From: a virus
DNA length: 64,000 bases
IMG/VR virus record: IMGVR_UViG_3300045988_122072
Coordinates: 1 to 64,000 of that record
Direction: 5' to 3' (one strand)
In this document: in pieces, positions 28,645-53,792 of the stretch
Layout: the number at the start of each line of letters is the position of its first letter
How positions within the stretch are numbered: position 1 is the first letter of the stretch
Position numbers and translations under genes: made by a program
Notes under the pieces: generated by a model
What the model was told of the DNA's origin: nothing
Database searches by the model: none
The model's input: the letters and a program-made list of their open reading frames with translations, nothing else

Positions 28645-30366
28645 TTAATCTTTCTTAAATAAATTACCATAAGCAGAAGCCTTTTTATCTTCCTTCTTAC
28701 TAAAATTAAATCCAAGACTATGAGACTTCTTGTCCTTCGCAGCAAACTGTGCTTTCTTTACACTGGCAGCGAATAGCAAATCACACTTATTCTGAATCTC
28801 TTCAACAGAATACTTTTCGGAATCGTTCACAAGTGTCTTAAATTCATCAGACTCACGGATACTATCATATGCTTCATCTGCAAAAATAGCATCTTTTGCG
28901 GCTTTCTGCTCTGCGGCATCATAACTATCCTTAAATGTCTTAAGCTCATTATATTTTGCCTCAAGTTCAGCATAATCTCCACGTAGTTTGTCTACGGCTA
29001 TTTTTTCAGATTCAGTCAATAGCATCTGGAACACTTCTGTACGCTCACCATCAAGAGATACATTTTCTCCGTCAATAGCATAACCCTGTTTATAAAATTT
29101 TCCATTGCACCATCCCTGCATTATGAAGTAATTATCATAAACAGCATAAATTCCATACCATTCATTGTCTGCCTCTTCATATTCTCCAAGAAGATTATAA
29201 AGAGCATATCTGATATCCTCATGAGAAATTTCAATCTTAAAATTCTTTACAAAATTTTCACCCTTCTTCTTAGACTCATCATCTTCAGTAGAAGCGCCTT
29301 CACCATCTTCTGGATCTTCATCTTCGCTTGGTTCTGGTTCTGTTGGCTGTGGATCTGTAGTGCCTGTGCCTTCGCCATCGCCTTCACCAACGCTAGGATC
29401 TGTTTCTCCGGCATCACCAGTATCAGAACCCGCACCACCATCATCATCTGCATACTTCTTATTCTTAAATTCCTCAAATGCGACATCAAGCTCATCATCT
29501 GACATGTTTTCATAATCAAAATCCAGCTCTTCTGCAGTAAAATCATACTTCTCTAGAAGTTCCTCAAAATGATTCATTTCTCTTCTCACTCCCTTCTCTG
29601 TATTGTTTTTATTGAAATTAGACAATGTACTGTCAAGCTTGTCTAATATTTCAACCAATTTTTCTTGATAATTAAATACAGGCTCCTTTTGACAGAAATC
29701 TGCAATATCAGCTCTTGCGCCAAGCATTCCTTCGCCTATTTCATTACCATGTTCATCACAGCCTAATAAAGTGCAACCGCCGAAATAAAAATCTGTCAAA
29801 TCAAGATATTTCTCTTTGGCATTATAAGAAAGCTCATTGATAACCAATTCGCAGCTTACTTTTGTTCCATTCTTTCTACGAATGATATTCGCAGCTTCAG
29901 TATATTCTTCTGGAATAACAGCATATGCATTAACATATGTCTTATCCTTTTCTTCATCATACTCAAGATAAGGATCTTCTGCCGTAAAACAACCAACTTG
30001 CTTTTCTGTATAAACTATCTTTTCATCACCATTTTCATCTTCTTCAATTTCCATATTGTGAGCATAAAAATCATATGTTCCATCATCAAGTTGATGAATA
30101 TATGCTAAGACAGGTCTATATTTTAAAGTAGGCATAGCGGTCTCCATATTCTCTTTAGAAATATGACTTCCGTTTCTATTGGTTTCGGTGTGACAAACTT
30201 TAAATTTTAATTTAAGCATCCCAGGCATATAATTATCAGATACTTCAAAATTTGCAGGAGTAGAAACAACAATCGGGTTGCCTTTTTCTTTTGAACTAAA
30301 ATTAACAGACTTATTTTGTTCTACAAAGAACTGATATAAATTATCAAGCGTTAAAATTTTATGCAT
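28645..30366 (-). CDS. Prohead protease-like / scaffold-like fusion protein
   Basis: 573 aa. The N-terminal part (RPVLAYIHQ.., TKVSCELVI) is loosely reminiscent of HK97-type prohead protease. A central highly acidic tract reads DDDGGAGSDTGDAGETDPSVGEGDGEG..EDEDPEDGEG. The C-terminus looks coiled-coil. It lies between the portal and capsid genes. Confidence 0.45.
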   Translation of the reverse strand: MHKILTLDNLYQFFVEQNKSVNFSSKEKGNPIVVSTPANFEVSDNYMPGMLKLKFKVCHTETNRNGSHISKENMETAMPTLKYRPVLAYIHQLDDGTYDFYAHNMEIEEDENGDEKIVYTEKQVGCFTAEDPYLEYDEEKDKTYVNAYAVIPEEYTEAANIIRRKNGTKVSCELVINELSYNAKEKYLDLTDFYFGGCTLLGCDEHGNEIGEGMLGARADIADFCQKEPVFNYQEKLVEILDKLDSTLSNFNKNNTEKGVRREMNHFEELLEKYDFTAEELDFDYENMSDDELDVAFEEFKNKKYADDDGGAGSDTGDAGETDPSVGEGDGEGTGTTDPQPTEPEPSEDEDPEDGEGASTEDDESKKKGENFVKNFKIEISHEDIRYALYNLLGEYEEADNEWYGIYAVYDNYFIMQGWCNGKFYKQGYAIDGENVSLDGERTEVFQMLLTESEKIAVDKLRGDYAELEAKYNELKTFKDSYDAAEQKAAKDAIFADEAYDSIRESDEFKTLVNDSEKYSVEEIQNKCDLLFAASVKKAQFAAKDKKSHSLGFNFSKKEDKKASAYGNLFKKD

Positions 30367-30414
30367 GTAATTTCCTCCTTTCTTGCAGAATAACTATAAA
30401 CTCTAAAAAAGAGA

Positions 30415-30591
30415 TTACAGACATAAAATATTAGTAAATGCTATCTTCTTGCCATATTCAGCAAAATTAAAATTCGTAGGCGCATTTATAAATACCCACG
30501 AATCATTTGTCTTATTTACCAGTTTAAAGATGGAAGCAAGTTTCTTTGCCACTTCTGGATCTTTTGTAACAATAAATTTTTTAGTATTCAT
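30415..30591 (-). CDS. Small hypothetical protein (58 aa, below the ORF-track cutoff)
   Basis: ATG 30591 lies 6 nt after GGAGGA. MNTKKFIVTKDPEVAKKLASIFKLVNKTNDSWVFINAP.. The stop is TAA at 30415-30417. Confidence 0.55.
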   Translation of the reverse strand: MNTKKFIVTKDPEVAKKLASIFKLVNKTNDSWVFINAPTNFNFAEYGKKIAFTNILCL

Positions 30592-30603
30592 GGCAGCTCC
30601 TCC

Positions 30604-32148
30604 TTACTTTACATTCTTTTCGCCATCTCTTGTAGCTTGACCTTCGTCACTTAATGGCTCATCACTTGTCGGTCTACCATCAGAACCATCTCCGTTTTCT
30701 GACAATCCGCTCTGCACATTGCTAGATACCAACGGAGCAACCCACTTCGTCCTTGCTAATCCAAGTTTATCTTCTAGATACTCTAAAGAACGGCACTGAG
30801 CAGGGTTAATTCCTAATAATGATGCCATTTGCATTTTAACTGGTAAGCCATATTGCCCCAACTTTAATAATTGGTCAATTTTGTCATCCTTAAAATATTT
30901 ACTAACATCAGAAAATTCAACAATTACATCTTCTATGCTAAGATTCTGTTTAATATAAAAATTAATCCATACATTGAACTGATTCACGACAGCCATAGCC
31001 GTCATACTCTCTGCCATCATAGCAAATTTAAAACTTGTGCTGTTAGTAATCTTATTAGAATTTAAAACAATATCACCATTGGCTTCAATAAGGTTTTGAT
31101 ATGCCTTATTAACAACATTAGTATCCTCAGCGGCATTTTGATTAAAATCAATACTATCCAAATCCATTGGAGATAGACCAATAGCAATACCTTCTGGAAT
31201 GATACCTAATAACTTTTCATAAAACTGATTTGCAAGCTCCAAATCTATAGCAAAATCATCTACTTCTTTCGAACCAGAAATAGTAGGGATCTTTGCCCAA
31301 ATTAATTTATAAGCACTTAACTCATCCTTAACCGCCTGAATTTGAGATAAATCAACAAGATCAATTAAAGAGTTGAACATCCCTGAAAATGGTGGTACAG
31401 GATAAGCCAAATTATCTTCATTAATCTTTAAACAAAAAGTTTGTTCTGGAGGTAACTCCTGCCAACGTAACTTACTATCAGATTTATAAGAATTATACAT
31501 CTTCTTAAAAACGGGATCATACACGTCAAGATAAAAACTATTAGAACCATCAAAAAATGAAAAGTTAAATGCAAAATTTATTTTTCCGCTATAATAATCC
31601 ACGCTTGAAATTTTACAATAATCAGGATCTAATATATGTATAAAAAACATATCTTCTTCTGGATTACCGTAACAGAATCCAAATACAACATCATCCAGCC
31701 ATGCTTTAATTAAACATTTACGAATTTGTGTGTCTAAATGCATCCCTTGAACATAATTGCTTGTCTTAATATAATTTTGATAAGAAGATTCTTCAACCTC
31801 ACCATTATCATTTAATTTAGGATAAACAATATAACTTTTTGCATCAAATTGATTGGCCTTATTTAATACCAACCTTCTATATACATGACTAACGGTATAT
31901 AAAAATTCAGATAAATTCCTTAAATTTTTCTGATTGGCTTCCGTGGAAGGATTCTGAAGATAGCTTCTAAGATTGTCCTTAGAATATACCGTATAAGACC
32001 TAGATTGATTCTGAGTTAGATCAATTAACTGCAAAATATCTTTAACTGCAGCAAATCTCGCTCTGGCTTTTTCGTCTTTTTGGAGAGCCGCTATGCGCTC
32101 TTGTTCTGTTAGCTCTTTCTTTTTCTGTTCAAAACTTTCCAAAGGCAT
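30604..32148 (-). CDS. Portal protein (by position and size)
   Basis: 514 aa, immediately downstream of the large terminase; GGAGG SD; no specific motif verified. Confidence 0.6.
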   Translation of the reverse strand: MPLESFEQKKKELTEQERIAALQKDEKARARFAAVKDILQLIDLTQNQSRSYTVYSKDNLRSYLQNPSTEANQKNLRNLSEFLYTVSHVYRRLVLNKANQFDAKSYIVYPKLNDNGEVEESSYQNYIKTSNYVQGMHLDTQIRKCLIKAWLDDVVFGFCYGNPEEDMFFIHILDPDYCKISSVDYYSGKINFAFNFSFFDGSNSFYLDVYDPVFKKMYNSYKSDSKLRWQELPPEQTFCLKINEDNLAYPVPPFSGMFNSLIDLVDLSQIQAVKDELSAYKLIWAKIPTISGSKEVDDFAIDLELANQFYEKLLGIIPEGIAIGLSPMDLDSIDFNQNAAEDTNVVNKAYQNLIEANGDIVLNSNKITNSTSFKFAMMAESMTAMAVVNQFNVWINFYIKQNLSIEDVIVEFSDVSKYFKDDKIDQLLKLGQYGLPVKMQMASLLGINPAQCRSLEYLEDKLGLARTKWVAPLVSSNVQSGLSENGDGSDGRPTSDEPLSDEGQATRDGEKNVK

Positions 32149-32160
32149 CGGCCTCCTTTC

Positions 32161-34209
32161 TTATCCAAATATTTTTTCAATTTGTTTGCGTGGAGTAACA
32201 GGTAGCATGTCTATAAGTTTATAATTTGTTGTACGTTTTTTATTACGAATACGCTCTGCACGTTTTTCTGAAAGTGCCCATGCACATAACGCCGCACAAT
32301 AGCTTCTATCGTCGTGCAACTTATTTGCTTTTTCTGGTATTAAGTCAAAAGAGTCTTTCCCAGAATCTCTTTTTTTACGAACCATATTCACCATTTCTTC
32401 TTTCATTGCATCAATATTTTTCAGTGCAATTTCTTGATATGGATCAAGTTTTACAATTTTTGTTTTAATACAAGAAGATTTTTTCATTTCTTCTTCGACC
32501 TTTTGAGCAAATTCTATTTCTGGAATGTTTTGCTTTTTCAGTTCTTCAGAAATGCGTTTCTTCTCTGAATTATATAATTTATCATCGACCTCAAATAACG
32601 TTAAATAGCCCTTATTATCATAATCATTCGTGAAACTAATGCAATCAAGATTCATCATTTCAATAAGTGCTTCATATATAATCGACTTATATTGAGTAGG
32701 GGAGACAAGCTTTAATTTATTAATAGCATTAGGATATTTACTAACATAATCAGCGCTATATTCCTTATCTATTAAGCCTCTATGTTTATTTCCCTTATCA
32801 TCTACCCAATCTTCCATCAGATAGTCAGCAATATTTACGCCGCCACCACCAGAACCAGCATCTATTAAAATTGCTTCTATGTTTTCATAATCTGGAGCGT
32901 TTCCATTATAATCCAATATAAGTTCTTTTAAATATTTAATCTGATCTGGTGTCTGCATTGGGCTTTTACGTTTTTTACCAACATCTAATAAATTAACACA
33001 ATTTACAATACGCCCTTTATAATTACCATGTTCGTCAACATAAAGTTCCATTATAAGAATAACGCTATTATCTCTGGAACGAGCAGGGTCATATGCAAAT
33101 ATAAATTTCTTTTTACCCGTATCATTATATAACAACGGGACACGAGTTTCGCTATTACGAGCAATAGTGCCGCGCTTAATAATAGCATTTAGCCCAGCAT
33201 CGGTAGTAAATTCACAATAATACTCACGACGTGCCTTTTCTGGGTTCGTTGCCATTTCGGTTTCAACTGTACTACGCATAAGCAAAGGAGCGATAACCTT
33301 ACCATGCATAGTCGGTTTAAAAGCAACCTCACAATCTATATGAGCAACAAAATAATCTTGGTCTCCCATAAGTTGTCGCTTAGCAAATTCTCTATATAAG
33401 CGATAAAATTCAGTATCAGTACTCGATGCTGAACTAATATAAAATTTTTGGTTTGGAATATTTGTAGGAAATGTACGAAGTCTAATTGGGTCAATAAGAT
33501 TGCCATCTCTGTCTTTACCAGTTTTAAAGCTTTTATTGACAATAGCAAATGCGCCATAAACCTTCATCATTTCTGCCGACAAGAAACCAGATTCATCAAA
33601 TATTACAGTTCCACGCATACCTCTCTTGGCGTCTATATTACTATTTAAAGTTTGAGTCATTGAACCATTATATAAAGAATACGTAAAACCATTGCTTGAA
33701 TGACTGAATCCATCTCCTGCAGCATTTTTAATTTCAACTTCGTGCTTAAAAATATATCCAGTTGAACCAACCATTTCATCAATATTGTCATTTGCCAGAC
33801 GTTCGAGCGTTGTAAATGTTTGTTCAGCCTGTCCGCCTGATCCTGACGCTATATAACTCCAAAAGTTATTGAATAACATACCTTTAGACATAAGAATTAA
33901 ATCAATTACCGTAGATTTTCCTAATCCACGAGTTGCCACAACAAGAACATTTGGGCAATTCCAAGACCTTTGAACTATCCATGCTTGTGCATCAATTAAT
34001 TCTATACCGAAAAAATCACTTATAAATCTAACAGGATTACATTGATAATATTTTTGTAATTCTGCAATTTTTATAAGTGATTCTATTTTACGAGTTGACA
34101 TTGCATATACACCGGGTTTTACATACACAGTGTTACTTTCATTCATTATATCCGAAAGATATCTGTCATTCATTTCATCAATTATTTTGATCTTCATCTG
34201 ACTGCTCAT
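32161..34209 (-). CDS. terL: Terminase large subunit
   Basis: Walker A-like VVATRGLGKST. Walker B-like VIFDESGF. C-terminal nuclease-like acidic motifs (AYDPARSRDNSV, ILIDAGSGGGG). ATG 34209 lies about 9 nt after GGAGG. Confidence 0.8.
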   Translation of the reverse strand: MSSQMKIKIIDEMNDRYLSDIMNESNTVYVKPGVYAMSTRKIESLIKIAELQKYYQCNPVRFISDFFGIELIDAQAWIVQRSWNCPNVLVVATRGLGKSTVIDLILMSKGMLFNNFWSYIASGSGGQAEQTFTTLERLANDNIDEMVGSTGYIFKHEVEIKNAAGDGFSHSSNGFTYSLYNGSMTQTLNSNIDAKRGMRGTVIFDESGFLSAEMMKVYGAFAIVNKSFKTGKDRDGNLIDPIRLRTFPTNIPNQKFYISSASSTDTEFYRLYREFAKRQLMGDQDYFVAHIDCEVAFKPTMHGKVIAPLLMRSTVETEMATNPEKARREYYCEFTTDAGLNAIIKRGTIARNSETRVPLLYNDTGKKKFIFAYDPARSRDNSVILIMELYVDEHGNYKGRIVNCVNLLDVGKKRKSPMQTPDQIKYLKELILDYNGNAPDYENIEAILIDAGSGGGGVNIADYLMEDWVDDKGNKHRGLIDKEYSADYVSKYPNAINKLKLVSPTQYKSIIYEALIEMMNLDCISFTNDYDNKGYLTLFEVDDKLYNSEKKRISEELKKQNIPEIEFAQKVEEEMKKSSCIKTKIVKLDPYQEIALKNIDAMKEEMVNMVRKKRDSGKDSFDLIPEKANKLHDDRSYCAALCAWALSEKRAERIRNKKRTTNYKLIDMLPVTPRKQIEKIFG

Positions 34210-35449
34210 TTTCGGATACCTCCTCGTCAACAGGTTCTATTTCACTAAGAGGGGAGAAGAGTTCATTTAAATTGATAAGATTCTCTTGCGGCAATAAATC
34301 ATGCTCAGACAGCGTATCTTTCAAATCTAAATTTTCTCTCAATAAAATCCTACATATCTCTTTATAATTTTCTCTTTCGCTAGTAAGTTGAGTTACAAGT
34401 TTTCTTTGCTCTGCGACAATATCAGAATATTCAGATTCATCAAGAGCAAGTTGCTTTAAAATAGAAGCATTGCTCAAATCCATAACCTGTTGCATGCCTT
34501 TACATGTTGCAATGTCAAATCCGTTGACTTCTCCCTCACGGAGATTTAATTCTTTAATTTTCTTAATTTTACCAGTCCAAGTATTTTCGCCCTTACTCTG
34601 ATTTTTATTATGTTTTAAACTTAAACAAGATTGTTCTGCCAACAAAGAAACAGTAGAGGCTACATTTTTCTTAGAATCTAAATAAGATTTAATTTCACCA
34701 GATTTATTGGAAACATTTGGAGAAGACATAGCTTTAGCAATCATATCATCTAATTTTGCTTGTTGTAAAAAACCACGAACAATAGTAATTGCGGAAGAGG
34801 TTCTCATCATGTCATCATTTTCTCCACTTGCATCCAAATATCCAATCAACTGAGAGTAGAGTAGTGGTTTATCTTCTTCTTGTTCATGCTCAAAAGGATC
34901 ATATCCAAGTAATCTAACAACGTCTACACGGTTCTTTTCATACTCTTCATTGATTTCTTGATTTTTTGGGCGTTGGTCTTCTGATAATTCCTTACCAATA
35001 TCTTGTTTAGCTTGCTTAATTGCTTCCTCTTTATAATTTGCAAATAAATCTCCATCACGCCAACGCATTGTCTTATATTGTGGCATACTAATATTTTTAA
35101 TATATGCCGCCCATATATTGCTACGTTGCTTTGGATTTTTATCATTTATATACTCAAAATAACTAGAATTCCAAATATTTTCGAGGAAGGGTTTATCAAG
35201 ACGTTCAAGTGCTTCTTGGACGGACGCCTTCGTACAATCGCCATATGTCTTAGTCCTAGCGTTATAATTTCTTGCAATTTTTTCCGCACAGTCCTTACAC
35301 ATTACCGTTTTGCCAGTCATCACAAGTGGGTCAGAGCTCATATAAAAATCTCCAGCTTTTTTAATGGTATTACAATATGGGCATAAGTATTTTTCAATTT
35401 GACAAGCCTTAGAAGTTGCCTTTCTACCCGCACTTTTACCTGTTGCCAT
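34178..35449 (-). CDS. Hypothetical protein upstream of terL (possible small terminase / packaging accessory)
   Basis: About 423 aa. N-terminal Zn-ribbon CPYCN..CKDC. Acidic C-terminus. Function assigned by position only. Confidence 0.35.
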   Translation of the reverse strand: MATGKSAGRKATSKACQIEKYLCPYCNTIKKAGDFYMSSDPLVMTGKTVMCKDCAEKIARNYNARTKTYGDCTKASVQEALERLDKPFLENIWNSSYFEYINDKNPKQRSNIWAAYIKNISMPQYKTMRWRDGDLFANYKEEAIKQAKQDIGKELSEDQRPKNQEINEEYEKNRVDVVRLLGYDPFEHEQEEDKPLLYSQLIGYLDASGENDDMMRTSSAITIVRGFLQQAKLDDMIAKAMSSPNVSNKSGEIKSYLDSKKNVASTVSLLAEQSCLSLKHNKNQSKGENTWTGKIKKIKELNLREGEVNGFDIATCKGMQQVMDLSNASILKQLALDESEYSDIVAEQRKLVTQLTSERENYKEICRILLRENLDLKDTLSEHDLLPQENLINLNELFSPLSEIEPVDEEVSENEQSDEDQNN

Positions 35450-35495
35450 CACTCTTCCTCCCTTCTACTTAGCATTTTGTAACGAATATTATATA

Positions 35496-35723
35496 TTATT
35501 CCGTACAAATCTCAACGGATTCATCAGTTGCCTGTTTCTTAAGACTGTCATTCAGCTCTGCAAACGCAGCCTCGAAAGCCTCATCACGTTTAAAAACAAA
35601 AATAGTCTTATCTGGATTTTCTTTAGACTGCTTAATATCTGCAATGGTACATCCAGCGCGTAGTAAACGTCTGGCGCATCCGGGGTTAAAAACTAGCTTA
35701 AAATTCTTTTTAATATCTTCCAT
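35496..35723 (-). CDS. Small hypothetical protein
   Basis: ATG 35723 follows AAGGAG. MEDIKKNFKLVFNPGCARRLLRAGCTIADIKQSKENPDKTIFVFKRD. Confidence 0.6.
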   Translation of the reverse strand: MEDIKKNFKLVFNPGCARRLLRAGCTIADIKQSKENPDKTIFVFKRDEAFEAAFAELNDSLKKQATDESVEICTE

Positions 35724-35760
35724 TTTATTATGTTCTCCTTTATTTTTTCTTGTTTTCAAT

Positions 35761-35792
35761 ATAAAAGCGGCAGTAATTATATATTACTGCCG
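35761..35792 (-). terminator. Hairpin terminator (possibly bidirectional)
   Basis: A roughly 10-bp palindromic stem CGGCAGTAAT-(TATA)-ATTACTGCCG spans 35767-35792, flanked by A- and T-rich runs, right after the stop of 35798-36994. Confidence 0.55.
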
Positions 35793-35797
35793 TTTTA

Positions 35798-36994
35798 TTA
35801 AAGTTTTATATTATATTCTACGACGTTTCCTTTGCCTTTCTCTAAAACGAATAGGGTAGCACCAGGATCAGACGCTTTATTTAAAGATAACGAATAATCA
35901 TCAACACCTATAATGCTAGGAACACTAATAATATCAGATTCAATTCCGACATTGCTACTTGACTTATGATGCTTGTGTCCACCAATTAAATAATCAATAT
36001 GTACCTTATAAATTCTAGAAAAGTCTTTAATCGCTTGTTCAAGGGACTTTCCTTCACCATGATACCCAAAAATATTATATCCGGCAATTTGATCAAATAC
36101 ATAGCCAGTAGGATTCTGAATGAATTCAAAATTAGGATTATCTCCAAGTCTATCCATAAGCTTATCTGTAATAATATATGATACATTTTCATCCTTGAAT
36201 GTATTTTTAGGTTGTCCCAACATCCTAAGTTGACAATGATTAGAATCTTTCACCATTTGATATCTAACTTTTACATACTTGGTTAATTCATTTAACCACT
36301 CTGTAATAAAACGTCCATATCTCGCGGTGCTTTCGATAACTCCATATCTTAATTTCATAAGTGCAGAGACTCTTAAACATCCCTCAATTTCGTCGCCAAG
36401 ATCATAAACATTTAGTATATCAAAGCCTTCTTTATTACAAATCTGAAGAACTTGATTAAGTAAATTCCACATTCTTTTTTCAAAAATTTCAGGAGAATAT
36501 TCATTTAAAATTTCCCCAAAAAGTCCTTGAATACATAAATCTTTCCCATAATGAGGATCTGCAAAAACTAAGTTTCCAAACCTTGTATTATATTTTGGCT
36601 CAATGACACGAGGAATATCTAGCTTTGGCATTTCTCTAATTGCCTCGGCAATATGTTCTGCGATAAGTTCTTCTCTTGCTTCTTCTCTAAGCCATCTATT
36701 ATATTCCACTTTTTCTGTCTGCAGCTTTTTACGTTCCTTTTCAATGCCTTTACGTTCAGAACGAATTTTTTCAAGATATTCATCTTCTGTAAAAAATGCA
36801 CCTTCATTTGCTTCCATCATTTTATTAAAACTCTGCACTTTTTTTCTATATGCACTCTCACCGTAGTTATATCCAAGAGATTCATTTAATATGTCTGCAA
36901 TATTTTGCCACGTCCATCCTTGTGACTCTTTCATGGAGCATATGCGCAGTATATATTGCTCTTCGTTTTCATTACTTAATTTATCATAACTCAT
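35798..36994 (-). CDS. Calcineurin-like metallophosphoesterase with N-terminal HTH-like region
   Basis: Motifs FADPHYG, VYDLGDEIEG, KDSNHCQ, GYHGEG and GGHKHH, in the canonical order of the Mre11/SbcD-type phosphoesterase fold. Confidence 0.75.
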   Translation of the reverse strand: MSYDKLSNENEEQYILRICSMKESQGWTWQNIADILNESLGYNYGESAYRKKVQSFNKMMEANEGAFFTEDEYLEKIRSERKGIEKERKKLQTEKVEYNRWLREEAREELIAEHIAEAIREMPKLDIPRVIEPKYNTRFGNLVFADPHYGKDLCIQGLFGEILNEYSPEIFEKRMWNLLNQVLQICNKEGFDILNVYDLGDEIEGCLRVSALMKLRYGVIESTARYGRFITEWLNELTKYVKVRYQMVKDSNHCQLRMLGQPKNTFKDENVSYIITDKLMDRLGDNPNFEFIQNPTGYVFDQIAGYNIFGYHGEGKSLEQAIKDFSRIYKVHIDYLIGGHKHHKSSSNVGIESDIISVPSIIGVDDYSLSLNKASDPGATLFVLEKGKGNVVEYNIKL

Positions 36995-37006
36995 AAAACC
37001 ACCCCA

Positions 37007-37312
37007 TTATTCACCATTAATTCTATATCTAAATGGCTGGCTAAATTTAGCATATGGGATGACTCTTTCTGGTGCCATCAAAGTTGTATTATCATGTGGG
37101 TTTCTTACTTCACGCGGAGCAACTCTACGAGCACCAATTGTAACACCGGGAATTAACTTCATCTCAGCATTTTCATCAAAGTTTGCTTCCTGCATAACGT
37201 CCGTAACTAGCGCCTCTAAAGCAGTCAGAAACTCTTCAATATTATACTTATAAAAGCCTGTACGGTCTGCGAGTTCATTAATTATATCTTGCTTTTTTAG
37301 TATTTTATTCAT
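37007..37312 (-). CDS. HU/IHF-family DNA-binding protein
   Basis: 101 aa. The helical N-terminus and the arm region GARRVAPREVRNPHDNTTLMAPERVIPYAKFS fit the HU/IHF beta-arm pattern. Confidence 0.7.
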   Translation of the reverse strand: MNKILKKQDIINELADRTGFYKYNIEEFLTALEALVTDVMQEANFDENAEMKLIPGVTIGARRVAPREVRNPHDNTTLMAPERVIPYAKFSQPFRYRINGE

Positions 37313-38881: not shown

Positions 38882-38978
38882 GTTTTGTACCTCCCTGTTG
38901 TGTGTTTTATTTAATAAAATATAAGCTTTTTTCTTATATCATTACTATTTTGTTCTAACTTTAGTTTACTGAAATGCC

Positions 38979-39007
38979 AAAAATGCAAGAGAATTCCTTG
39001 CATTTTT
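38979..39007 (-). terminator. Bidirectional rho-independent terminator
   Basis: AAAAATGCAAG-7 nt-CTTGCATTTTT: a perfect 11-bp stem including the A/T tracts, after the stop of the GIY-YIG gene. Confidence 0.7.
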
Positions 39008-39012
39008 GACAT

Positions 39013-39021
39013 TAATTTTGT
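39013..39021 (-). promoter_or_regulatory. ACAAAATTA box
   Basis: An exact 9-mer lies between the inverted TTGACA/TGTCAA pair (39005-39029), immediately upstream of the terminator hairpin. Confidence 0.35.
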
Positions 39022-39038: not shown

Positions 39039-39752
39039 TCACTTCACATTTTTATTGTACCATCGCTTTTGCCTCTCTCTATTAATCAATTTGTTATGCT
39101 CTGTTTGACATTTTTCACATCTACAAATTGCTGTTGCCAATGGATTAATAACTACATCAATTCCACAATCAATACAAACAATCACTTTATTTTGAGCTGG
39201 CGCACGCTTTCTGCAATCTTCACATCTTTTAATTTTATTAGAATATGGGATCTTCTTAGTATGAGATTTGTTCCACTTTAATTTAATTTCAAATAATGCT
39301 CCGCATTGTGAACACTTTCTTATGGCAGGATCTCCATTGTTAAATCTTTCTTGATATTTTTCAAAAGACTGCTCTTTATGCCTTCTTCTTATTGTATTTT
39401 GCATAGAAGAAATTTGCTTTAATATAGAAGATTTAGAACGAATATGATTCTCTCCGCCAGATTTTAAATTATATCCCTTATCTGGATTTGTAGTTTCTAA
39501 TTTTTCTATTAATAATTCTTCAAAATGATTAGCTTCTTCCTGAGTTAAATTTGAAGCAATGACTTCATGCTCAAAATTATCCCAACCATATTTTTGAATA
39601 GCATGATAAAAATATGAAGATAATTCATACCCTAATCCATTGCGCCAACGTTTATTTGGATCGTCTCCATATTTCGTTTGTCCAACATATTTTTTTTCAT
39701 TTATCTTATTAATATGCATATAAACACAATAAGTATCATTGTAAATTTCCAT
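39039..39752 (-). CDS. GIY-YIG homing endonuclease (free-standing) with C-terminal Zn-ribbons
   Basis: YCVYMHINKINEKKYVGQT..RWRNG..HAIQKYGWDNFEHEVI..EEANHFEELLIEKL..GYNLKSGG. C-terminal Zn-ribbons CSQCG..CEDC..CIDCG..CRCEKCQ. Confidence 0.8.
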   Translation of the reverse strand: MEIYNDTYCVYMHINKINEKKYVGQTKYGDDPNKRWRNGLGYELSSYFYHAIQKYGWDNFEHEVIASNLTQEEANHFEELLIEKLETTNPDKGYNLKSGGENHIRSKSSILKQISSMQNTIRRRHKEQSFEKYQERFNNGDPAIRKCSQCGALFEIKLKWNKSHTKKIPYSNKIKRCEDCRKRAPAQNKVIVCIDCGIDVVINPLATAICRCEKCQTEHNKLINRERQKRWYNKNVK

Positions 39753-40635
39753 TATCACTCATTGCAACCCTCCTATTTTTCATCATCGCATTTCTCTGAT
39801 ATTCTAACTGCTTTTGATGTTGGCATTCTTCACATCTACAACTTCTCTTATTAGAAGATGCTACAATAAAATGAGTTCCACATTCAATACATTCAATTTC
39901 TTTAGTACCCATTGGTTCATAATTTTCTCTATGAATACCGCAATATTGCATAGCATTATTTCTTACACGGAACCATCTTCCGCACGCCTTACATCTTTTA
40001 TATCCACCATTTTTATAATTCAAAAATGCATAAGCAAGTTCCAAATAATCATATTCATCAAGCGTAAGAATAACTTCGCCCTCATCATGATCTACAAAAG
40101 CGGCAGTCAAGGCATTATAACCTATGCTAAAATTCTGTTTGAGCAATCCTTCCTTATATGCAAACCCAAAATATAAATCTCTATCTTTAGCTGGAATAAC
40201 AACCCTTGCAAACTTAAATATTTCAGAAGTCTTTGCATAGAATGTATCATTATCTCTTTGACTTTCGGCATTTTGATATTTTGCTAATGCTAAAATGACA
40301 AATGCAATTTTTTCTTTCCTTATATCATTTAAAGACATAATTTTGTCCATTTCTCTTTTTGTAATATTAATAGTATTTACATCTTTAATTTTATATTTAT
40401 AAGCCTTATTAATATCCTTATTAATGGTATTTATATACCCCTGATACATAAAACCATTATAATTTTGAGCCATAAAGTCAACAATTTTCCAAAATACATC
40501 ATTCTTATCTGCAGGATTTAATTGTGTATAATAAATTGCTGCATTCCAAATTGCTTGAGTTATACTAACTCCATCAATATTTTTATCCTCTATAATGCTA
40601 TAAATCCTACTTTTTTCATTAAAATTAAATCTCAT
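39736..40635 (-). CDS. Hypothetical protein with C-terminal double Zn-ribbon
   Basis: 299 aa. Its C-terminus CKACGRWFRV..CIECGTHFIV..CRCEECQ parallels the C-terminus of the adjacent GIY-YIG protein. Confidence 0.7.
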   Translation of the reverse strand: MRFNFNEKSRIYSIIEDKNIDGVSITQAIWNAAIYYTQLNPADKNDVFWKIVDFMAQNYNGFMYQGYINTINKDINKAYKYKIKDVNTINITKREMDKIMSLNDIRKEKIAFVILALAKYQNAESQRDNDTFYAKTSEIFKFARVVIPAKDRDLYFGFAYKEGLLKQNFSIGYNALTAAFVDHDEGEVILTLDEYDYLELAYAFLNYKNGGYKRCKACGRWFRVRNNAMQYCGIHRENYEPMGTKEIECIECGTHFIVASSNKRSCRCEECQHQKQLEYQRNAMMKNRRVAMSDNGNLQ

Positions 40636-43456
40636 CTATAATTTCACCTCCAATTCTAATAGTTTTATTAGAAAATTTCGTACCACAACAACAAAAATCT
40701 GCATTTTCACTCTTTTCTGGATATGTAAGAGTATTATCATGTTTTTCTAACATATTTTTAATAATTTGAGTACCGCAAACATCCCAAACTATAGTTTTAC
40801 TCATTTTCCCAGTATAACAAATATCTAATAAAATATCACAAAGAGACTCTTCATTCGGGCAAATAGACGTCATATCTTCTATGAGAGTTTCGAGAAGTCT
40901 GTCTTTGTCCTCTAATAATATCTTTCTTTCTTCTTCATTATTAATTTTTCTACTATTTAAAGCCTTCAAATTCATTAAATAATGCTCGCACAAACCTTTT
41001 ATTTCTGCATAAGAGCTTCTTCTTACATTATTTTTTGATTTATAAATACTATAGTCAAATTCTAATTCTTCACAAGAAAAATTTCCGTCAAATTTCTCTT
41101 CTATTTTTCTACAAATACGATTCATAGTAGAAGGAGACATATCAATAGGGCATTTTGCAGAACAATATTGAACAAATTTAGCCTCATCTTCACTTAAATT
41201 ATCCATTTTTAGCATATCTTCAAACGAAATACCATATAGACCAATTGATTTTGAATTAACTTCTTCAATAAATTTTTGATAATTAATTCTTTCTGTATCG
41301 TAGTTATACATAAAGAAATACGGCTTTTTATTTGCACAAATTGTTTGATTAAATGCTTTTTTCTCTTGAATTTCCTCAGAATCATCAGGCTTTATGATAT
41401 TTGCGCCATATTGATACCATTCTTTTGGCATCGGAATAGGTAAAATCCCCTTTGCTTTATCAATTTCTCTTTGTTGCAGTGCTTGACCACATTGAGTTCT
41501 ATATCTTAATGTTTCATATTCTTTACTATTTGGGGCATAATTTGCCATCAAACTTGTCATTTGTGTAATTTTATTTGTTATGGAACCAATTTTACTGCCA
41601 AATCCAGCCTTATTTGAAGCAATTATATCCTCTTCTTTAACTACTTTTTTAGGAGCCTTTGTCTGTATACAATTCAATGCAGGAAGATTAGTTTGTCTTC
41701 TTATCAATGACACATTATTTGTTGTAAATAATAAATCACCATCAAAATCAAAGCCATTTAATGCAGCGGGCATTGTGTCCCACCCATTTACAACTATACA
41801 AGTATCAATATATTGAAACCAATCAAGAGCTTTTTTATCTTTACATATATTTTGAGCAACTATAGAATGAGCATTACTCATTGGAGCTCTAAAACAAAGA
41901 ACTCTATCTACGCCTTCATCATACCAATATTTACTATAAATTTCACCAGCCTTTAAAATTCCATGTGGTTCCAGCCCAAACATACTTTCACAAAGGGCAT
42001 ATAAATCCCCAGAAAGGATTTGGAAGTTCCCATGCAGATCCAAAACGCCAATTTTAGCATCTTTTATTCGTCTATTTATCATTTTTTTGATTTTTGAGCG
42101 AATATAAGGATCATTTATAGCAATTTTATCAATCATAAGCGCTTTTGCAATATTTTCAGCAAAGATTACATTTTTCTCATTTAATCCCTTGCCACATAAA
42201 TATGCAACGCTTTTTCTTGGATCTAACTCCATAATATCTTTAATTTCATTAACTGTTAGTGCAATAAGCTCATCTATATCATCATCTGTAAGGTCTAAAG
42301 ACTGTATAAATTGATAATTTAATTGCCTTATATCATCATTTTCTTCTTCAGATGTCTTTGTAACTCTTAAAGTATAATGATTCGCAATACATTTTTCATA
42401 ATAATCTTCCCATGAAGAATAACTGCCGCACAACTTAAGCTGGCTTTCAGTTAATATTAAATCAGCATCGCGTATATCTCTTTCTTTCCCCCAATAATCT
42501 TTAATTAAATACTTTTCTGGATGTTCTGCAGACGCACCAATAATTTCTTCTGCGAATCTAATAAAATCAAAAGTAAGAGCCATGCCTTTTGTAAAAGCAC
42601 AACGCATATTACATCCGCTCATTGTATGTTCTGAGTTTCCATTTAGCTCTCCATTCCACCTTTTAGACAAGTGGGGGAGCATCATTGAACATCCATCCGA
42701 CATATTATTTTCAAAATCTTCATTATGTTTTTCTGTTACTTTTGGTTCTACCGTTGGATCACTGTCATCTATTTCAATAAAATTCGTCTTAAAATGAACA
42801 ACACAGTCTTTTACAACAATAATGCCTCCGGGAATATTACTTTCACGAGATCTAGGCCAGCTAACTGGGATTGATGCACTAGCGGCAAGTGATTCATAGG
42901 CTCCATACTTAGCAGGAGAGAGCTTTACATCTGTATTTCTGCCATTTGCTATGCGTCTCTTTAACTCATCATGAATATTTACACTTTGCCCATTGTACTC
43001 AACGAATCTATCTGCGGCATATACAACACTGGATGTTTTTACTCCATTGGTAGTGCAAATCAATCTTTTATATGCAATTCCATTTACTTTAAACCCTTTA
43101 TTTGCTCTATCATAATCAGACTTTTTATCAAAAACCACACATAAATAGTCCTTTTTGAACTGTAAATCATATAATTCTGTATATTTTTCTGAAACTTTTT
43201 TCTTATTGTCATCACTATTTGGCTGTTTTTTAATTTCTTTTATGTCTTTTTTAATTTGTTTTGCTCTTGAATCATAATCCTCGGTTCCATTTAGCTCATT
43301 AATCCAAGTTAAAATTTGCGAATCAGCCAAAGAAACAACAACCCCAGGAATTTTTCTTGCGTCTGACAATGGTAATTCTAATTCCCAATTATTTTGCTTG
43401 AGCAGACTTGAATTAATTTTATATATATACTGTTGTGTTTTTTGCTGTTTTGCCAA
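40625..43456 (-). CDS. YonO/RdRP-like single-subunit two-barrel RNA polymerase
   Basis: Metal-binding loop NGFDFDGDLLF is encoded at 41735-41749 (gat ttt gat ggt gat). It is preceded by VLCFRAPMSNAHSIV. N-terminal barrel motifs are NMSDGCSMML and MRCAFTKGMALTFD. There is no ATG near the 5' end; the likely start is TTG 43456, 7 nt after GGAGG. Confidence 0.75.
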   Translation of the reverse strand: MAKQQKTQQYIYKINSSLLKQNNWELELPLSDARKIPGVVVSLADSQILTWINELNGTEDYDSRAKQIKKDIKEIKKQPNSDDNKKKVSEKYTELYDLQFKKDYLCVVFDKKSDYDRANKGFKVNGIAYKRLICTTNGVKTSSVVYAADRFVEYNGQSVNIHDELKRRIANGRNTDVKLSPAKYGAYESLAASASIPVSWPRSRESNIPGGIIVVKDCVVHFKTNFIEIDDSDPTVEPKVTEKHNEDFENNMSDGCSMMLPHLSKRWNGELNGNSEHTMSGCNMRCAFTKGMALTFDFIRFAEEIIGASAEHPEKYLIKDYWGKERDIRDADLILTESQLKLCGSYSSWEDYYEKCIANHYTLRVTKTSEEENDDIRQLNYQFIQSLDLTDDDIDELIALTVNEIKDIMELDPRKSVAYLCGKGLNEKNVIFAENIAKALMIDKIAINDPYIRSKIKKMINRRIKDAKIGVLDLHGNFQILSGDLYALCESMFGLEPHGILKAGEIYSKYWYDEGVDRVLCFRAPMSNAHSIVAQNICKDKKALDWFQYIDTCIVVNGWDTMPAALNGFDFDGDLLFTTNNVSLIRRQTNLPALNCIQTKAPKKVVKEEDIIASNKAGFGSKIGSITNKITQMTSLMANYAPNSKEYETLRYRTQCGQALQQREIDKAKGILPIPMPKEWYQYGANIIKPDDSEEIQEKKAFNQTICANKKPYFFMYNYDTERINYQKFIEEVNSKSIGLYGISFEDMLKMDNLSEDEAKFVQYCSAKCPIDMSPSTMNRICRKIEEKFDGNFSCEELEFDYSIYKSKNNVRRSSYAEIKGLCEHYLMNLKALNSRKINNEEERKILLEDKDRLLETLIEDMTSICPNEESLCDILLDICYTGKMSKTIVWDVCGTQIIKNMLEKHDNTLTYPEKSENADFCCCGTKFSNKTIRIGGEIIDEI

Positions 43457-43480
43457 ACGCACCGCCTCCAAACCACAAAA

Positions 43481-43720
43481 TTATTCGCCAACTTCTCTTA
43501 TTTCATAACAATTTTCACAATATTTATTACCATTTTCAACTTCTACATATGTTCCACAGAGCCAGTCATTACATCCATCACATTTATATGTTTCTGCATA
43601 GGCTCCACCACAAGATGGGCACCCATCCCATTCTTCATATGGAGGGGAGTCCAAACCGTGTGTTTCTATCCAATGTTTAGGCTCGTCAAAAACACATCCA
43701 CAATCCAAGCAAATAAACAT
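43481..43720 (-). CDS. Small Zn-ribbon protein
   Basis: CLDCG..CPSCGG..CDGC..CENC; the start is probably ATG 43720. Confidence 0.6.
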   Translation of the reverse strand: MFICLDCGCVFDEPKHWIETHGLDSPPYEEWDGCPSCGGAYAETYKCDGCNDWLCGTYVEVENGNKYCENCYEIREVGE

Positions 43721-43741
43721 AATTATCACCACCATCCAAAA

Positions 43742-44086: not shown

Positions 44087-44097
44087 CAAACCACTCC

Positions 44098-44394: not shown

Positions 44395-44402
44395 AATTCA
44401 CC

Positions 44403-47247: not shown

Positions 47248-47262
47248 TTTCTGTACCTCCAT

Positions 47263-47277: not shown

Positions 47278-47305
47278 ATTATAACACATTTTCCCAATTT
47301 GTCAA
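47278..47305 (-). promoter_or_regulatory. Consensus sigma-70-type promoter
   Basis: Minus strand TTGACA (47300-47305), 16 nt, TATAAT (47278-47283). Confidence 0.7.
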
Positions 47306-47309
47306 TAGG

Positions 47310-47672
47310 TTATAGCTCATCAAAATCATCTTCCTGTAGTGCTCTTTGTACAGTTCTTAGACTACAGCCAAGCGCATTTGCGATTTCTTGATTATCCATG
47401 CCCTGTTCATTTAGTTCTTTAATTTTGTCACTTGAGTATTTTGGCTGCCTTCCTTTTGCTTTAAGGGCAGAATTATATCTTTCCTTTGCTTTATTCATAC
47501 TGCACTCAATAGCTCCTTTAATAATTGCTTGAATCATTGGATCGTCTGTAGTAATTTCTCCAGATGTACCAAAAGACATAATTTGCCATAAAATTTCTTT
47601 TGCAGTAGTTTCATCAAAACCCTCTATCAATGTTCTCCATTTGCCATAGAATACAAAATTTTCATATTCCAT
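47310..47672 (-). CDS. HTH DNA-binding protein (first gene of the minus arm)
   Basis: 120 aa. C-terminal NQEIANALGCSLRTVQRAL is a helix-turn-helix. GGAGG SD. Confidence 0.7.
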   Translation of the reverse strand: MEYENFVFYGKWRTLIEGFDETTAKEILWQIMSFGTSGEITTDDPMIQAIIKGAIECSMNKAKERYNSALKAKGRQPKYSSDKIKELNEQGMDNQEIANALGCSLRTVQRALQEDDFDEL

Positions 47673-47689
47673 TTTTCACACCTCCTCAT

Positions 47690-47698
47690 TAATTTTGT
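47690..47698 (-). promoter_or_regulatory. ACAAAATTA box
   Basis: AAAACAAAATTAATGAGGAGG lies in the leader of 47310-47672. Confidence 0.35.
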
Positions 47699-47710
47699 TT
47701 TGTTGAGTGG

Positions 47711-47739
47711 ATTATATCATAGGATGTAAAATTTGTCAA
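47711..47739 (-). promoter_or_regulatory. Consensus sigma-70-type promoter of the minus arm
   Basis: Minus strand TTGACA (47734-47739), 17 nt, TATAAT (47711-47716). Confidence 0.75.
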
Positions 47740-47880: not shown

Positions 47881-47883
47881 TAC

Positions 47884-53789: not shown

Positions 53790-53792
53790 ATC

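What the first reader, a model, noticed from the sequence alone, without database searches (positions are those of the whole stretch)
40625..43456. The phage encodes a YonO/RdRP-like two-barrel single-subunit RNA polymerase with a non-ATG start
The 943-aa ORF contains the double-psi beta-barrel signature ..VLCFRAPMSNAHSIV..(35 aa)..NGFDFDGDLLF, matching the DxDGD Mg-binding loop in the NADFDGD of multisubunit RNAP beta-prime and the DbDGD of eukaryote-type RdRPs. Upstream lie SDGCS and MRCAFTKGMALTFD, comparable with the RdRP/YonO SDG.G and R..G.KG motifs. YonO of Bacillus prophage SPbeta is the characterised member of this rare family. No ATG exists in the first 250 or so codons. TTG at 43456 with GGAGG 7 nt upstream is the likely start. 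The gene is embedded among many small Zn-ribbon proteins that could be its cofactors.
Basis: partly seen in the sequence, partly recalled or inferred. Interest (0 to 1): 0.75.

Follow-up and report, generated by a model that had tools for sequence, protein, structure and literature searches.

The report
YonO-type phage RNA polymerase gene
A gut phage related to Bacillus phage SPbeta encodes a single-chain, two-barrel RNA polymerase of the known YonO type, which starts at a TTG codon and is always followed by a small zinc-ribbon partner gene that may be its missing initiation factor.

Summary
ORF 40625-43456 (-) encodes 943 aa from a TTG start with a GGAGG Shine-Dalgarno site.

The interpretation also holds:
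- It matches Pfam RdRP PF05183 above the gathering score.
- A family profile aligns to SPbeta YonO with hhalign probability 100% (E 3e-56).
- All eight invariant two-barrel active-site residues are present.
- The AlphaFold model (pLDDT 93.6) matches only RDR2 and QDE-1 among solved structures (E down to 4e-17).
- Downstream genes are collinear with the YonO-dependent late operon of SPbeta (yonJ, yonG, yonF, yonD).

It is therefore most likely a DNA-dependent late-gene RNA polymerase. It is a new member of a known kind, and the family is large, not rare.

A different partner emerges. The downstream 299-aa ORF (39736-40635) overlaps the polymerase stop codon and sits in the same position in 79 of 80 related loci. 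Its zinc ribbon is fused to the C-terminus of YonO in SPbeta-type enzymes that lack the partner gene. It is a candidate DNA-binding initiation factor, but this is inferred, not shown.

The parts
40625..43456 (-). Coding sequence of the 943-aa single-chain two-barrel RNA polymerase (YonO/RdRP type), with a TTG start
   Evidence: ORF. Pfam PF05183. BLASTP and hhalign to YonO. AlphaFold model pLDDT 93.6. Foldseek matches to RDR2 and QDE-1.
43465..43469 (-). GGAGG Shine-Dalgarno site, 8 nt upstream of TTG 43456
   Evidence: Sequence. Purine-rich sites at the same distance in relatives.
42686..42700 (-). SDGCS motif of the first (beta-like) barrel. D254 corresponds to QDE-1 D709 and Rpb2 D837.
   Evidence: Position. 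D254 and G255 are invariant in 76 homologues. Aligned to SDGIG of RDR2 and TDGCG of YonO. Residue roles from PMC2919709.
42566..42607 (-). MRCAFTKGMALTFD motif. R285 and K290 are the two basic residues of the first barrel.
   Evidence: Position. K290 and G291 invariant, R285 at least 90% conserved. Aligned to R..YKG of RDR2.
41858..41902 (-). VLCFRAPMSNAHSIV motif. R523 and P525 belong to the second (beta-prime-like) barrel.
   Evidence: Position. R523 and P525 invariant. They lie 45-47 residues before the Asp triad, as R962 and P964 do in QDE-1.
41726..41758 (-). NGFDFDGDLLF catalytic loop. D570, D572 and D574 form the Mg-binding triad.
   Evidence: Position. Invariant. Aligned to DNDGD of YonO and DLDGD of RDR2. 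The YonO 3D>3N mutant is inactive (PMC5467207).
39736..40635 (-). 299-aa partner gene. Its ATG overlaps the polymerase stop by 11 nt. It has helical and winged-helix-like domains followed by two zinc ribbons. Candidate cofactor.
   Evidence: A homologue lies directly downstream in 79 of 80 IMG/VR loci and in phages c-st, PMBT24, BUCT082 and TR-TP1. Model pLDDT 86.
39928..39999 (-). First zinc ribbon of the partner (C215, C218, C232, H235). Homologous to the C-terminal ribbon of SPbeta YonO (residues 796-820).
   Evidence: BLASTP. hhalign E 2.4e-5. hmmsearch E 4.7e-7.
39820..39897 (-). Second zinc ribbon of the partner (C249, C252, C268, C271). Present only in the closer relatives.
   Evidence: Alignment A2. 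The HMM coverage differs between loci. Shared with the C-terminus of the adjacent GIY-YIG endonuclease.
39039..39758 (-). GIY-YIG homing endonuclease. It overlaps the partner's 3' end and shares the double zinc-ribbon module. It is a mobile neighbour, not part of the polymerase.
   Evidence: Pfam and PHROG hits. BLASTP E 2e-7 to partner residues 213-290. Present in 17 of 20 close and 5 of 60 distant loci.
38973..39013 (-). 18-bp hairpin with a U-rich 3' arm. Possible terminator of the polymerase operon, comparable to the stem-loop after yonO in SPbeta.
   Evidence: Fold dG -21.8 kcal/mol, z -6.7. Terminator-like hit. SPbeta stem-loop annotation.
47278..47739 (-). Two perfect sigma-70-type promoters (47739-47711 and 47305-47278) at the head of the minus-strand block. 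They are the likely host-polymerase promoters for the operon that contains the phage polymerase gene.
   Evidence: 12 of 12 consensus matches with an extended -10. Only weak terminator-like sites lie between them and the gene. Function is inferred.
28645..37312 (-). Presumed target late genes, collinear with SPbeta: HU/yonN-like (37007-37312), yonJ-like (35798-36994), yonG-like (34178-35452), terminase/yonF-like (32161-34230), portal (30604-32148), yonD-like (28645-30366).
   Evidence: BLASTP to SPbeta proteins: yonJ E 5e-63, yonG 9e-13, yonF 4e-11, yonD 2e-9. HU Pfam hit. PHROG portal and terminase hits. Precomputed YonJ_N and YonG_N hits.

Best explanation
The ORF encodes a catalytically competent, single-polypeptide, two-double-psi-beta-barrel RNA polymerase. 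It is orthologous in role to YonO of Bacillus phage SPbeta.

Proposed mechanism:
1. Host RNA polymerase transcribes the early minus-strand operon from consensus sigma-A promoters near 47.3-47.7 kb. This step is inferred.
2. The polymerase is translated from a weak TTG start. The TTG start itself is shown and is conserved.
3. The 299-aa downstream protein is made by translational coupling. The overlap of the two genes is shown.
4. The enzyme then transcribes phage DNA, not RNA, through the late structural and packaging genes downstream (the yonJ, yonG, terminase, portal and yonD homologues). Like YonO, it would be insensitive to host-polymerase controls. This step is inferred from homology and synteny.
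5. Catalysis uses D570, D572 and D574 plus D254 for the two Mg ions. R285, K290 and R523 contact the NTP and RNA. The residues are shown to be conserved; their roles come from the family literature.

Second-level inference, about 40% likely: the 299-aa partner is a subunit or initiation factor that brings DNA or promoter binding to the polymerase. Its zinc ribbon is covalently fused to the polymerase in SPbeta-type enzymes.
For: Homology:
- Pfam RdRP at 55 bits, above the cut-off.
- BLASTP to YonO, E 2e-30.
- Family profile against YonO: probability 100%, E 3.4e-56, residues 103-891 aligned to YonO 112-794.

Active site:
- D254, K290, R523, P525, D570, D572 and D574 are invariant in 76 homologues of 26-56% identity. 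R285 is at least 90% conserved.
- These match the eight invariant two-barrel residues listed in PMC2919709.

Fold:
- AlphaFold pLDDT 93.6, pTM 0.90.
- The top 21 PDB matches are all RDR2 or QDE-1, E 4e-17 to 2e-10. Multisubunit polymerases appear only at E above 0.1.
- The viral structure library returns phage proteins named RdRP.

Function of the reference enzyme: YonO is a strict DNA-dependent RNA polymerase that transcribes the SPbeta late operon (PMC5467207).

Synteny: homologues of yonJ, yonG, yonF and yonD follow the window's gene in the same order and on the same strand.

Partner gene:
- It is adjacent or overlapping in 79 of 80 loci.
- Its ATG overlaps the polymerase stop by 4-11 nt, with a GGAGGTGA site, in the close relatives.
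- The ribbon and the partner gene have complementary distributions. YonO, Perkons and D-1873 have the ribbon fused and no partner gene. The window, c-st, BUCT082, PMBT24 and TR-TP1 have a partner gene and no ribbon on the polymerase.
- The ribbon module is shared with the DNA-binding end of a GIY-YIG endonuclease.
- The weak Foldseek matches of the partner are mostly winged-helix DNA binders.
Against: - No activity, template preference or rifampicin test is possible here. QDE-1, the structural neighbour, uses both RNA and DNA templates.
- No promoter for the enzyme could be identified in the window, and the YonO promoter is itself unknown.
- Unlike SPbeta, the window has no yonK gene and no long yonN-yonK gap or Rfam RNA motif at the head of the late genes.
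- ClpP-like and PhoH genes sit between the polymerase operon and the yonJ homologue, so the start of the late unit is uncertain.
- Sigma-70-like promoters also occur before late-region genes, for example 39029-39002 and 35515-35488. Part of that region may therefore be read by the host polymerase.
- For the partner, the Foldseek matches are not significant (best E 0.2).
- The TR-TP1 partner lacks the ribbon.
- Conserved adjacency does not prove physical interaction.
Confidence: 0.85

Rival explanations
1. It is an RNA-dependent RNA polymerase, as public databases name it. It would copy phage or host transcripts into double-stranded or antisense RNA, rather than transcribe DNA.
For: The Pfam family is named RdRP. 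nr names a 98% identical protein 'RNA-dependent RNA polymerase'. The closest solved structures are RDR2 and QDE-1.
Against: The only characterised phage member, YonO, strongly prefers DNA templates and drives late-gene transcription (PMC5467207). The window's gene sits in the same place relative to the same late genes. The database name is simply inherited from the Pfam family title.
Confidence: 0.06
2. The polymerase is a YonO-type late transcriptase that works alone. The 299-aa downstream protein would be an unrelated DNA-binding regulator, or a remnant of homing-endonuclease traffic, kept next to the gene only by operon inheritance.
For: Purified YonO alone forms stable, processive elongation complexes. 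The partner shares its zinc-ribbon module with an adjacent mobile GIY-YIG endonuclease. The partner's structural matches are not significant. The TR-TP1 homologue lacks the ribbon.
Against: The gene pair is kept in 79 of 80 loci down to 40% polymerase identity, while every other neighbour changes. The start and stop codons overlap. The ribbon is fused to the polymerase exactly in those phages that lack the partner gene. Forrest et al. could not show promoter recognition by YonO alone and left a factor requirement open.
Confidence: 0.45
3. The enzyme serves replication rather than gene expression, for example by making primers or R-loops at the phage origin.
For: Two-barrel enzymes include the archaeal DNA polymerase PolD. 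The gene lies in an early operon.
Against: Deleting yonO abolishes late transcripts specifically. The window's gene is collinear with that system. No replication genes adjoin it.
Confidence: 0.04

Closest known systems
YonO of Bacillus phage SPbeta (single-chain DNA-dependent RNA polymerase; Forrest et al. 2017, PMC5467207)
   Same: It has the same catalytic core: 28% identity over about 460 aa, and a profile alignment over 665 columns. The active-site residues are the same. It holds the same position, upstream of an HU gene and of the yonJ, yonG, yonF and yonD homologues. It follows small early genes and is followed by a hairpin.
   Different: The window's enzyme is 943 aa against 839 aa. It lacks YonO's C-terminal CxxCG...KYCxxC zinc ribbon and ends instead in a small beta-hairpin domain (residues 909-934). 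The ribbon sits on a separate, translationally coupled 299-aa protein. The window has no yonK gene and no yonN-yonK gap with an RNA motif. It comes from a ~163-kb human-gut phage contig, not a Bacillus prophage.
Clostridium phage c-st CST179 + CST178 + CST177
   Same: This is the best match among cultured phages, at 37% identity over 96% of the protein. It has the same split between polymerase and partner. CST177 matches the 299-aa ORF at E 1e-19. The c-st annotators had already noted that CST177 resembles the C-terminus of YonO.
   Different: The c-st polymerase is annotated as two ORFs, because a 317-nt insert sits exactly between the D and G codons of DMD|GD. The window's gene is uninterrupted.
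Eukaryotic cellular RNA-dependent RNA polymerases (Neurospora QDE-1, plant RDR2)
   Same: The overall fold matches: TM about 0.4-0.5 over roughly 900 aligned columns, probability 1.0. The catalytic motifs are collinear. A single chain carries both barrels, without the flap (SBHM) insert.
   Different: Identity is only 11-14%. Those enzymes act on RNA (QDE-1 also on single-stranded DNA) in silencing pathways. This one belongs to a double-stranded DNA phage and is predicted to transcribe DNA.
Other phage two-barrel polymerases (crAss-like gp66, P23-45 tape-measure-fused polymerase, jumbo-phage multisubunit polymerases)
   Same: They belong to the same superfamily and share the DxDGD chemistry.
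   Different: No match to them appears among the significant Foldseek PDB hits (E up to 0.001). After RDR2 and QDE-1, only cellular multisubunit polymerases appear, at E above 0.1. Those enzymes are virion-borne or multisubunit, whereas this one is a YonO-clade non-virion enzyme.

Membership tests
Pfam PF05183 RdRP / two-barrel (double-psi beta-barrel) polymerase superfamily | Profile match above the curated gathering score | tested here: met
   55.1 bits against a cut-off of 23.8, E 7.5e-15, residues 117-635.
Pfam PF05183 RdRP / two-barrel (double-psi beta-barrel) polymerase superfamily | The eight invariant active-site residues: Asp of the first barrel, Arg and Lys of the first barrel, Arg-x-Pro of the second barrel, and the DxDxD triad (QDE-1 D709, R738, K743, R962, P964, D1007, D1009, D1011) | tested here: met
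   The residues are D254, R285, K290, R523, P525, D570, D572 and D574. Their spacings match QDE-1. Seven are invariant and R285 is at least 90% conserved in 76 homologues. Alignments to YonO and RDR2 agree. The residue list comes from PMC2919709.
Pfam PF05183 RdRP / two-barrel (double-psi beta-barrel) polymerase superfamily | Both barrels in one polypeptide, with a global fold like QDE-1 or RDR2 | tested here: met
   The predicted model has pLDDT 93.6. The 21 best PDB matches are RDR2 or QDE-1 at probability 1.0. This rests on a predicted structure, not a solved one.
YonO-type phage late-gene DNA-dependent RNA polymerase | Sequence homology to YonO across the catalytic core | tested here: met
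   BLASTP E 2e-30. hhalign probability 100%, E 3.4e-56.
YonO-type phage late-gene DNA-dependent RNA polymerase | The gene lies upstream of, and on the same strand as, the SPbeta-type late operon | tested here: met
   Homologues of yonJ, yonG, yonF and yonD lie in the same order downstream, together with an HU gene.
YonO-type phage late-gene DNA-dependent RNA polymerase | C-terminal CxxCG...KYCxxC zinc ribbon on the polymerase chain, as in YonO, Perkons and D-1873 | tested here: not met
   The window's polymerase ends without a ribbon. The ribbon is on the separate 299-aa protein. This marks a split-type sub-architecture shared with c-st, BUCT082 and PMBT24.
YonO-type phage late-gene DNA-dependent RNA polymerase | DNA-templated, processive RNA synthesis that depends on the Asp triad, and dependence of late mRNAs on the enzyme | not testable with these tools
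   This needs biochemistry and infection transcriptomics. It is known only for YonO itself.
Eukaryote-type RNA-dependent RNA polymerase (functional class) | Use of an RNA template in vivo | not testable with these tools
   The structural resemblance does not settle template choice. The phage context argues against it.
crAss-like gp66 / multisubunit-like phage polymerases | Closest structural or sequence neighbour is a beta/beta-prime-like enzyme | tested here: not met
   Multisubunit polymerase chains appear only at E above 0.1. No gp66-type chain is among the top 50 matches.

The most novel reading that the evidence does not exclude
YonO/RdRP-type two-barrel polymerases of phages may be two-component enzymes. 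The conserved, translationally coupled partner, made of winged-helix-like domains plus zinc ribbons, would be the polymerase's DNA- or promoter-recognition factor. Functionally it would be analogous to sigma or TFB. In SPbeta only its ribbon survives, fused to YonO. This would answer the question Forrest et al. left open: how YonO finds its promoter.
Probability: 0.3. Interest if true: 0.6.

Novelty: new member of a known kind. Interest (0 to 1): 0.35.

Why it matters
YonO-type enzymes are the simplest known relatives of cellular RNA polymerases, and they are the presumed prokaryotic kin of the eukaryotic RNAi polymerases. This window adds little on its own. The identical protein is already in public metagenome data, and near-identical ones are auto-annotated as 'RNA-dependent RNA polymerase'.

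It does show three things:
- The family is abundant in ~100-170-kb gut phages related to SPbeta.
- A non-ATG start is a conserved feature of the gene.
- The polymerase gene is nearly always paired with one specific zinc-ribbon protein, whose ribbon is fused to YonO itself.

That pairing gives a concrete, testable candidate for the unknown initiation mechanism of this polymerase class. Cultured systems are available for the test: SPbeta, BUCT082 and Enterocloster phage PMBT24.

Tried and rejected
- A plain sequence search of the polymerase against PDB chains found nothing. Only the profile search and the fold search reached RDR2 and QDE-1.
- megablast of 12 kb around the gene against GenBank phages found no match.
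- The search for related loci with the 76-sequence alignment failed because no conserved stretch was long enough. A 15-sequence alignment worked.
- Upstream zinc-ribbon ORFs as cofactors: rejected on conservation, with 0 of 60 distant loci carrying them.
- NCBIfam gave no model for the polymerase, the partner, or the yonJ/yonG homologues.
- The local Pfam copy lacks the YonJ_N and YonG_N models seen in the precomputed hits. Synteny was therefore tested by direct BLASTP to SPbeta proteins.
- The partner protein had no significant hit in the PDB fold search (best E 0.2), the PDB profile search (best E 0.16, ribbon only), or Pfam (ribbon families and DUF6076 in a few members).
- A search for a late-promoter motif in the minus-strand intergenic regions gave only ACAAAATTAATG. 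That motif is tied to sigma-70-type promoters and homing-endonuclease leaders, not obviously to the phage polymerase.
- Rfam found no RNA motif near the window's gene. It also did not recognise the inserts that split the c-st and L026 polymerase genes as group I introns.
- My automatic start-codon picker was unreliable for loci of about 42% identity. Start-codon conservation is therefore claimed only for the 20 closest loci.
- A genome-collection hit labelled 'uncultured Prevotella sp.' carries an 86% identical gene on a 147-kb contig. I treat this as a probable binning artefact. All cultured relatives infect Firmicutes, and the window's genes use GGAGG sites.


Full report
**1. The observation**

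The minus strand carries one long ORF. Its stop codon is at 40625-40627 and it stays open up to TTG 43471. Three in-frame start candidates sit at the 5' end: TTG 43471, GTG 43462 and TTG 43456.

GGAGG lies at 43469-43465. That leaves an 8-nt spacer to TTG 43456, only 2 nt to the GTG, and it overlaps the first TTG. Public gene callers also chose TTG 43456. The identical 943-aa protein is on record (P0001) on four ENA contigs. One of them is the 163,290-bp human-gut scaffold that the window evidently comes from.

The next in-frame ATG is at 42703, which is residue 252. The N-terminal 250 residues are genuinely coding. Distant homologues align from residues 1-10, and the structure model is confident from about residue 10. 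A non-ATG start is therefore required.

TTG at the homologous codon is conserved in 14 of the 20 closest IMG/VR relatives (51-98% identity). Two have ATG there.

The spacing between the last two is 33 aa, not 35.

**2. What the protein is**

- Pfam RdRP (PF05183) matches at 55 bits, above the 23.8-bit cut-off.
- The PHROG matches have no assigned function. They include one full-length family and two 'half' families.
- tblastn against GenBank phages finds 38 records, all phages of Firmicutes: Clostridium c-st at 37%, Enterocloster phages at 36%, Bacillus BUCT082 at 29%, and SPbeta-like phages. Among the last are records whose gene is annotated 'yonO: DNA-directed RNA polymerase'.
- Direct BLASTP to SPbeta YonO gives E 2e-30. 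It aligns SDGCSMMLP with TDGCGMMLP, MRCAFTKGMALTFDF with VRLPWVKGLLVPFDF, and FDFDGD with FDNDGD.
- A 76-sequence family profile aligns to YonO with probability 100% and E 3.4e-56. It covers residues 103-891 against YonO 112-794.
- In that alignment (26-56% identity to the query) the invariant columns include D254, G255, K290, G291, R523, P525, D570, D572 and D574. R285 is at least 90% conserved.
- These are the eight residues that define the active site of all two-barrel polymerases. In QDE-1 they are D709, R738, K743, R962, P964, D1007, D1009 and D1011 (PMC2919709). The spacings match.
- The same profile aligns collinearly to plant RDR2 at the SDG, R..KG and DxDGD motifs.

**3. Structure**

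AlphaFold2 run on the 76-sequence alignment gave pLDDT 93.6 and pTM 0.90.

- Foldseek against the PDB returned 21 matches with E of 0.001 or better. All are RDR2 (maize, Arabidopsis) or QDE-1, with E from 3.9e-17 to 1.7e-10, probability 1.0, and TM about 0.4-0.5 over roughly 900 columns.
- The next hits are the largest subunits of cellular polymerases, at E above 0.1.
- No YonO structure was among the matches.
- The viral structure library returned phage proteins named RdRP.

It is clearly not met.

**4. Context and likely role**

The gene sits in a long minus-strand block (GC skew). In the direction of transcription the order is:

1. Two perfect sigma-70-type promoters at 47739-47711 and 47305-47278.
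2. An HTH gene and about a dozen small ORFs.
3. The polymerase.
4. A 299-aa ORF that overlaps the polymerase stop by 11 nt.
5. A GIY-YIG homing endonuclease.
6. An 18-bp hairpin (dG -21.8 kcal/mol, z -6.7).
7. A ClpP-like protease, PhoH and HU.
8. Homologues of SPbeta yonJ (E 5e-63), yonG (9e-13), terminase yonF (4e-11), portal and yonD (2e-9).
9. Virion and tail genes.

SPbeta has the same order: yonO, stem-loop, yonN (HU), yonK, yonJ, yonG, yonF, yonE, yonD.

Forrest et al. showed the following for YonO (PMC5467207):
- It is a strict DNA-dependent, highly processive RNA polymerase.
- Its Asp triad is essential.
- It is required for plaque formation.
- It transcribes exactly this late operon, starting upstream of yonK.

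By homology and collinearity, I conclude that the window's enzyme is the late-gene transcriptase of an SPbeta-like gut phage. The template choice, rifampicin resistance and target genes are inferred, not shown.

**5. The family is not rare**

An exhaustive phmmer search over 1.84 billion cluster representatives found 1662 clusters with E of 0.001 or better, and 418 with E of 1e-30 or better. IMG/VR holds at least 487 loci. nr already labels a 98% identical protein 'RNA-dependent RNA polymerase [Caudoviricetes sp.]'.

**6.

The upstream ORFs at 43481-44798 are indeed CxxC-rich. They are not conserved with the polymerase, however. Homologues occur in 1-10 of the 20 close loci and in 0 of the 60 distant loci.

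The downstream 299-aa ORF behaves differently.
- It has a homologue directly after the polymerase gene in 79 of 80 IMG/VR loci. The exception is cut off by a contig end.
- It also has homologues in c-st (CST177, E 1e-19), PMBT24, BUCT082 and TR-TP1.
- In the close relatives its ATG overlaps the polymerase stop by 4-11 nt, behind a GGAGGTGA site.

Its model (pLDDT 86) shows a helical N-terminal domain. This is followed by a helix-strand-helix-helix-strand-strand unit (residues about 105-192), and then by two zinc ribbons.

Its PDB fold matches are not significant (best E 0.2). Many are winged-helix DNA binders such as ArsR, Fur, MarR and plasmid Rep; the top-ranked ones are PCI-type subunits of the COP9 signalosome and the proteasome lid. 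I treat this only as a hint.

The first ribbon (C215, C218, C232) is homologous to the C-terminal tail of YonO, residues 796-820. The evidence is BLASTP E 4e-5 via the BUCT082 partner, hhalign E 2.4e-5 and hmmsearch E 4.7e-7.

The distribution of the ribbon and the partner gene is complementary.
- YonO, Perkons and D-1873 polymerases end in the ribbon and have no partner gene.
- The window, c-st, BUCT082, PMBT24 and TR-TP1 polymerases lack the ribbon and have the partner gene.

[quoted passage not shown] From general knowledge of GIY-YIG enzymes, that part is presumably DNA-binding.

A fusion-fission pattern plus strict, coupled adjacency is classic evidence for a functional link. I therefore propose that the partner is a DNA-binding subunit or initiation factor of the polymerase, with about 40% confidence. 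The c-st annotators noted the CST177-YonO resemblance in their record. I found no functional study of it in the searched literature.

**7. What remains open**

I could not locate a promoter for the enzyme. The only over-represented intergenic motif is ACAAAATTAATG, with 6 sites against 0.5 expected. It is tied to sigma-70-type promoters and to the leaders of homing-endonuclease genes.

The window lacks yonK, and it lacks the RNA motifs that sit near the head of the late genes in SPbeta and BUCT082 (DUF3800-VIII) and in c-st (RAGATH-18).

**8. Verdict**

This is a new member of a known kind, and interest in the polymerase itself is modest. The conserved split or fused zinc-ribbon partner is the one element that could repay experiments.

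Noticed in passing
window 26810-27181 (-) and 20668-21012 (-): Two group I catalytic introns score above the Rfam gathering score (68.8 and 60.1 bits). Each is followed by a homing-endonuclease ORF (25916-26815, and the HNH gene at 19359-20474) inside the virion-gene block. I did not work out which host genes they interrupt.
   Followed up: partly
window 20558-20570(-), 26927-26939(-), 39009-39021(-), 47259-47271(-), 47686-47698(-), 63754-63766(+): The motif ACAAAATTAATG(T) occurs 6 times with at most 1 mismatch, against 0.48 expected. At three sites it lies 6-12 nt after a sigma-70 -10 box and just before GGAGG-ATG. At the other three it fills the spacer of a TTGACA-N16/17-TATAAT-like promoter. 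It also precedes the endonuclease gene in the L026 insert. It may be an operator or a leader element; this is unresolved.
   Followed up: partly
L002 (phage c-st) 6630-6946; L026 6969-7996 (also L028): Polymerase genes of relatives are interrupted exactly at invariant codons. In c-st a 317-nt insert lies between D and G of DMD|GD. In L026 and L028 a 1028-nt insert carrying a GIY-YIG endonuclease splits EID|KAKG. The flanking frames rejoin perfectly, so these look like introns. Rfam's group I model does not detect them. Enterocloster phages CB473P1-P3 are also in 2-3 pieces. The two-ORF annotation in c-st and the two 'half' PHROG families probably come from such splits.
   Followed up: partly
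L001 (SPbeta) 6844-6909; L004 (BUCT082) 8632-8697; L002 (c-st) 10923-10983; L061 8804-8882: Rfam RNA motifs of unknown function sit near the head of the late genes in relatives. [quoted passage not shown] RAGATH-18 lies before the HU gene of c-st, and skipping-rope RNA occurs in L061. None is found in the window.
   Followed up: partly
window 39039-39758 (-): A GIY-YIG homing endonuclease overlaps the 3' end of the partner gene by 23 nt. Its C-terminal double zinc ribbon is homologous to that of the partner (E 2e-7). It is present in 17 of 20 close loci but only 5 of 60 distant ones.
   Followed up: yes
window 47278-47739 (-) and 47700-48800: Two 12/12 consensus sigma-70 promoters with an extended -10 head the minus-strand block. 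Gene orientation and GC skew both switch at about 48 kb. This looks like a divergent early control region next to an HTH gene (47310-47672).
   Followed up: no
window 12000-16000 and 50000-56000: These stretches have a GC content of 0.43-0.46, against about 0.33-0.37 elsewhere. The first covers tail-fibre-like genes (12803-16530), which may have been acquired by recombination.
   Followed up: no
L009 (USJD01000001.1): An 86% identical polymerase lies on a 147-kb contig binned as 'uncultured Prevotella sp.'. All cultured relatives infect Firmicutes and the window uses GGAGG ribosome-binding sites, so the label is probably a binning artefact.
   Followed up: no
window 4052-11140 (-): A 2362-aa ORF in the tail region matches only PHROG families of unknown function. 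It may be a giant tail or tape-measure-like protein.
   Followed up: no
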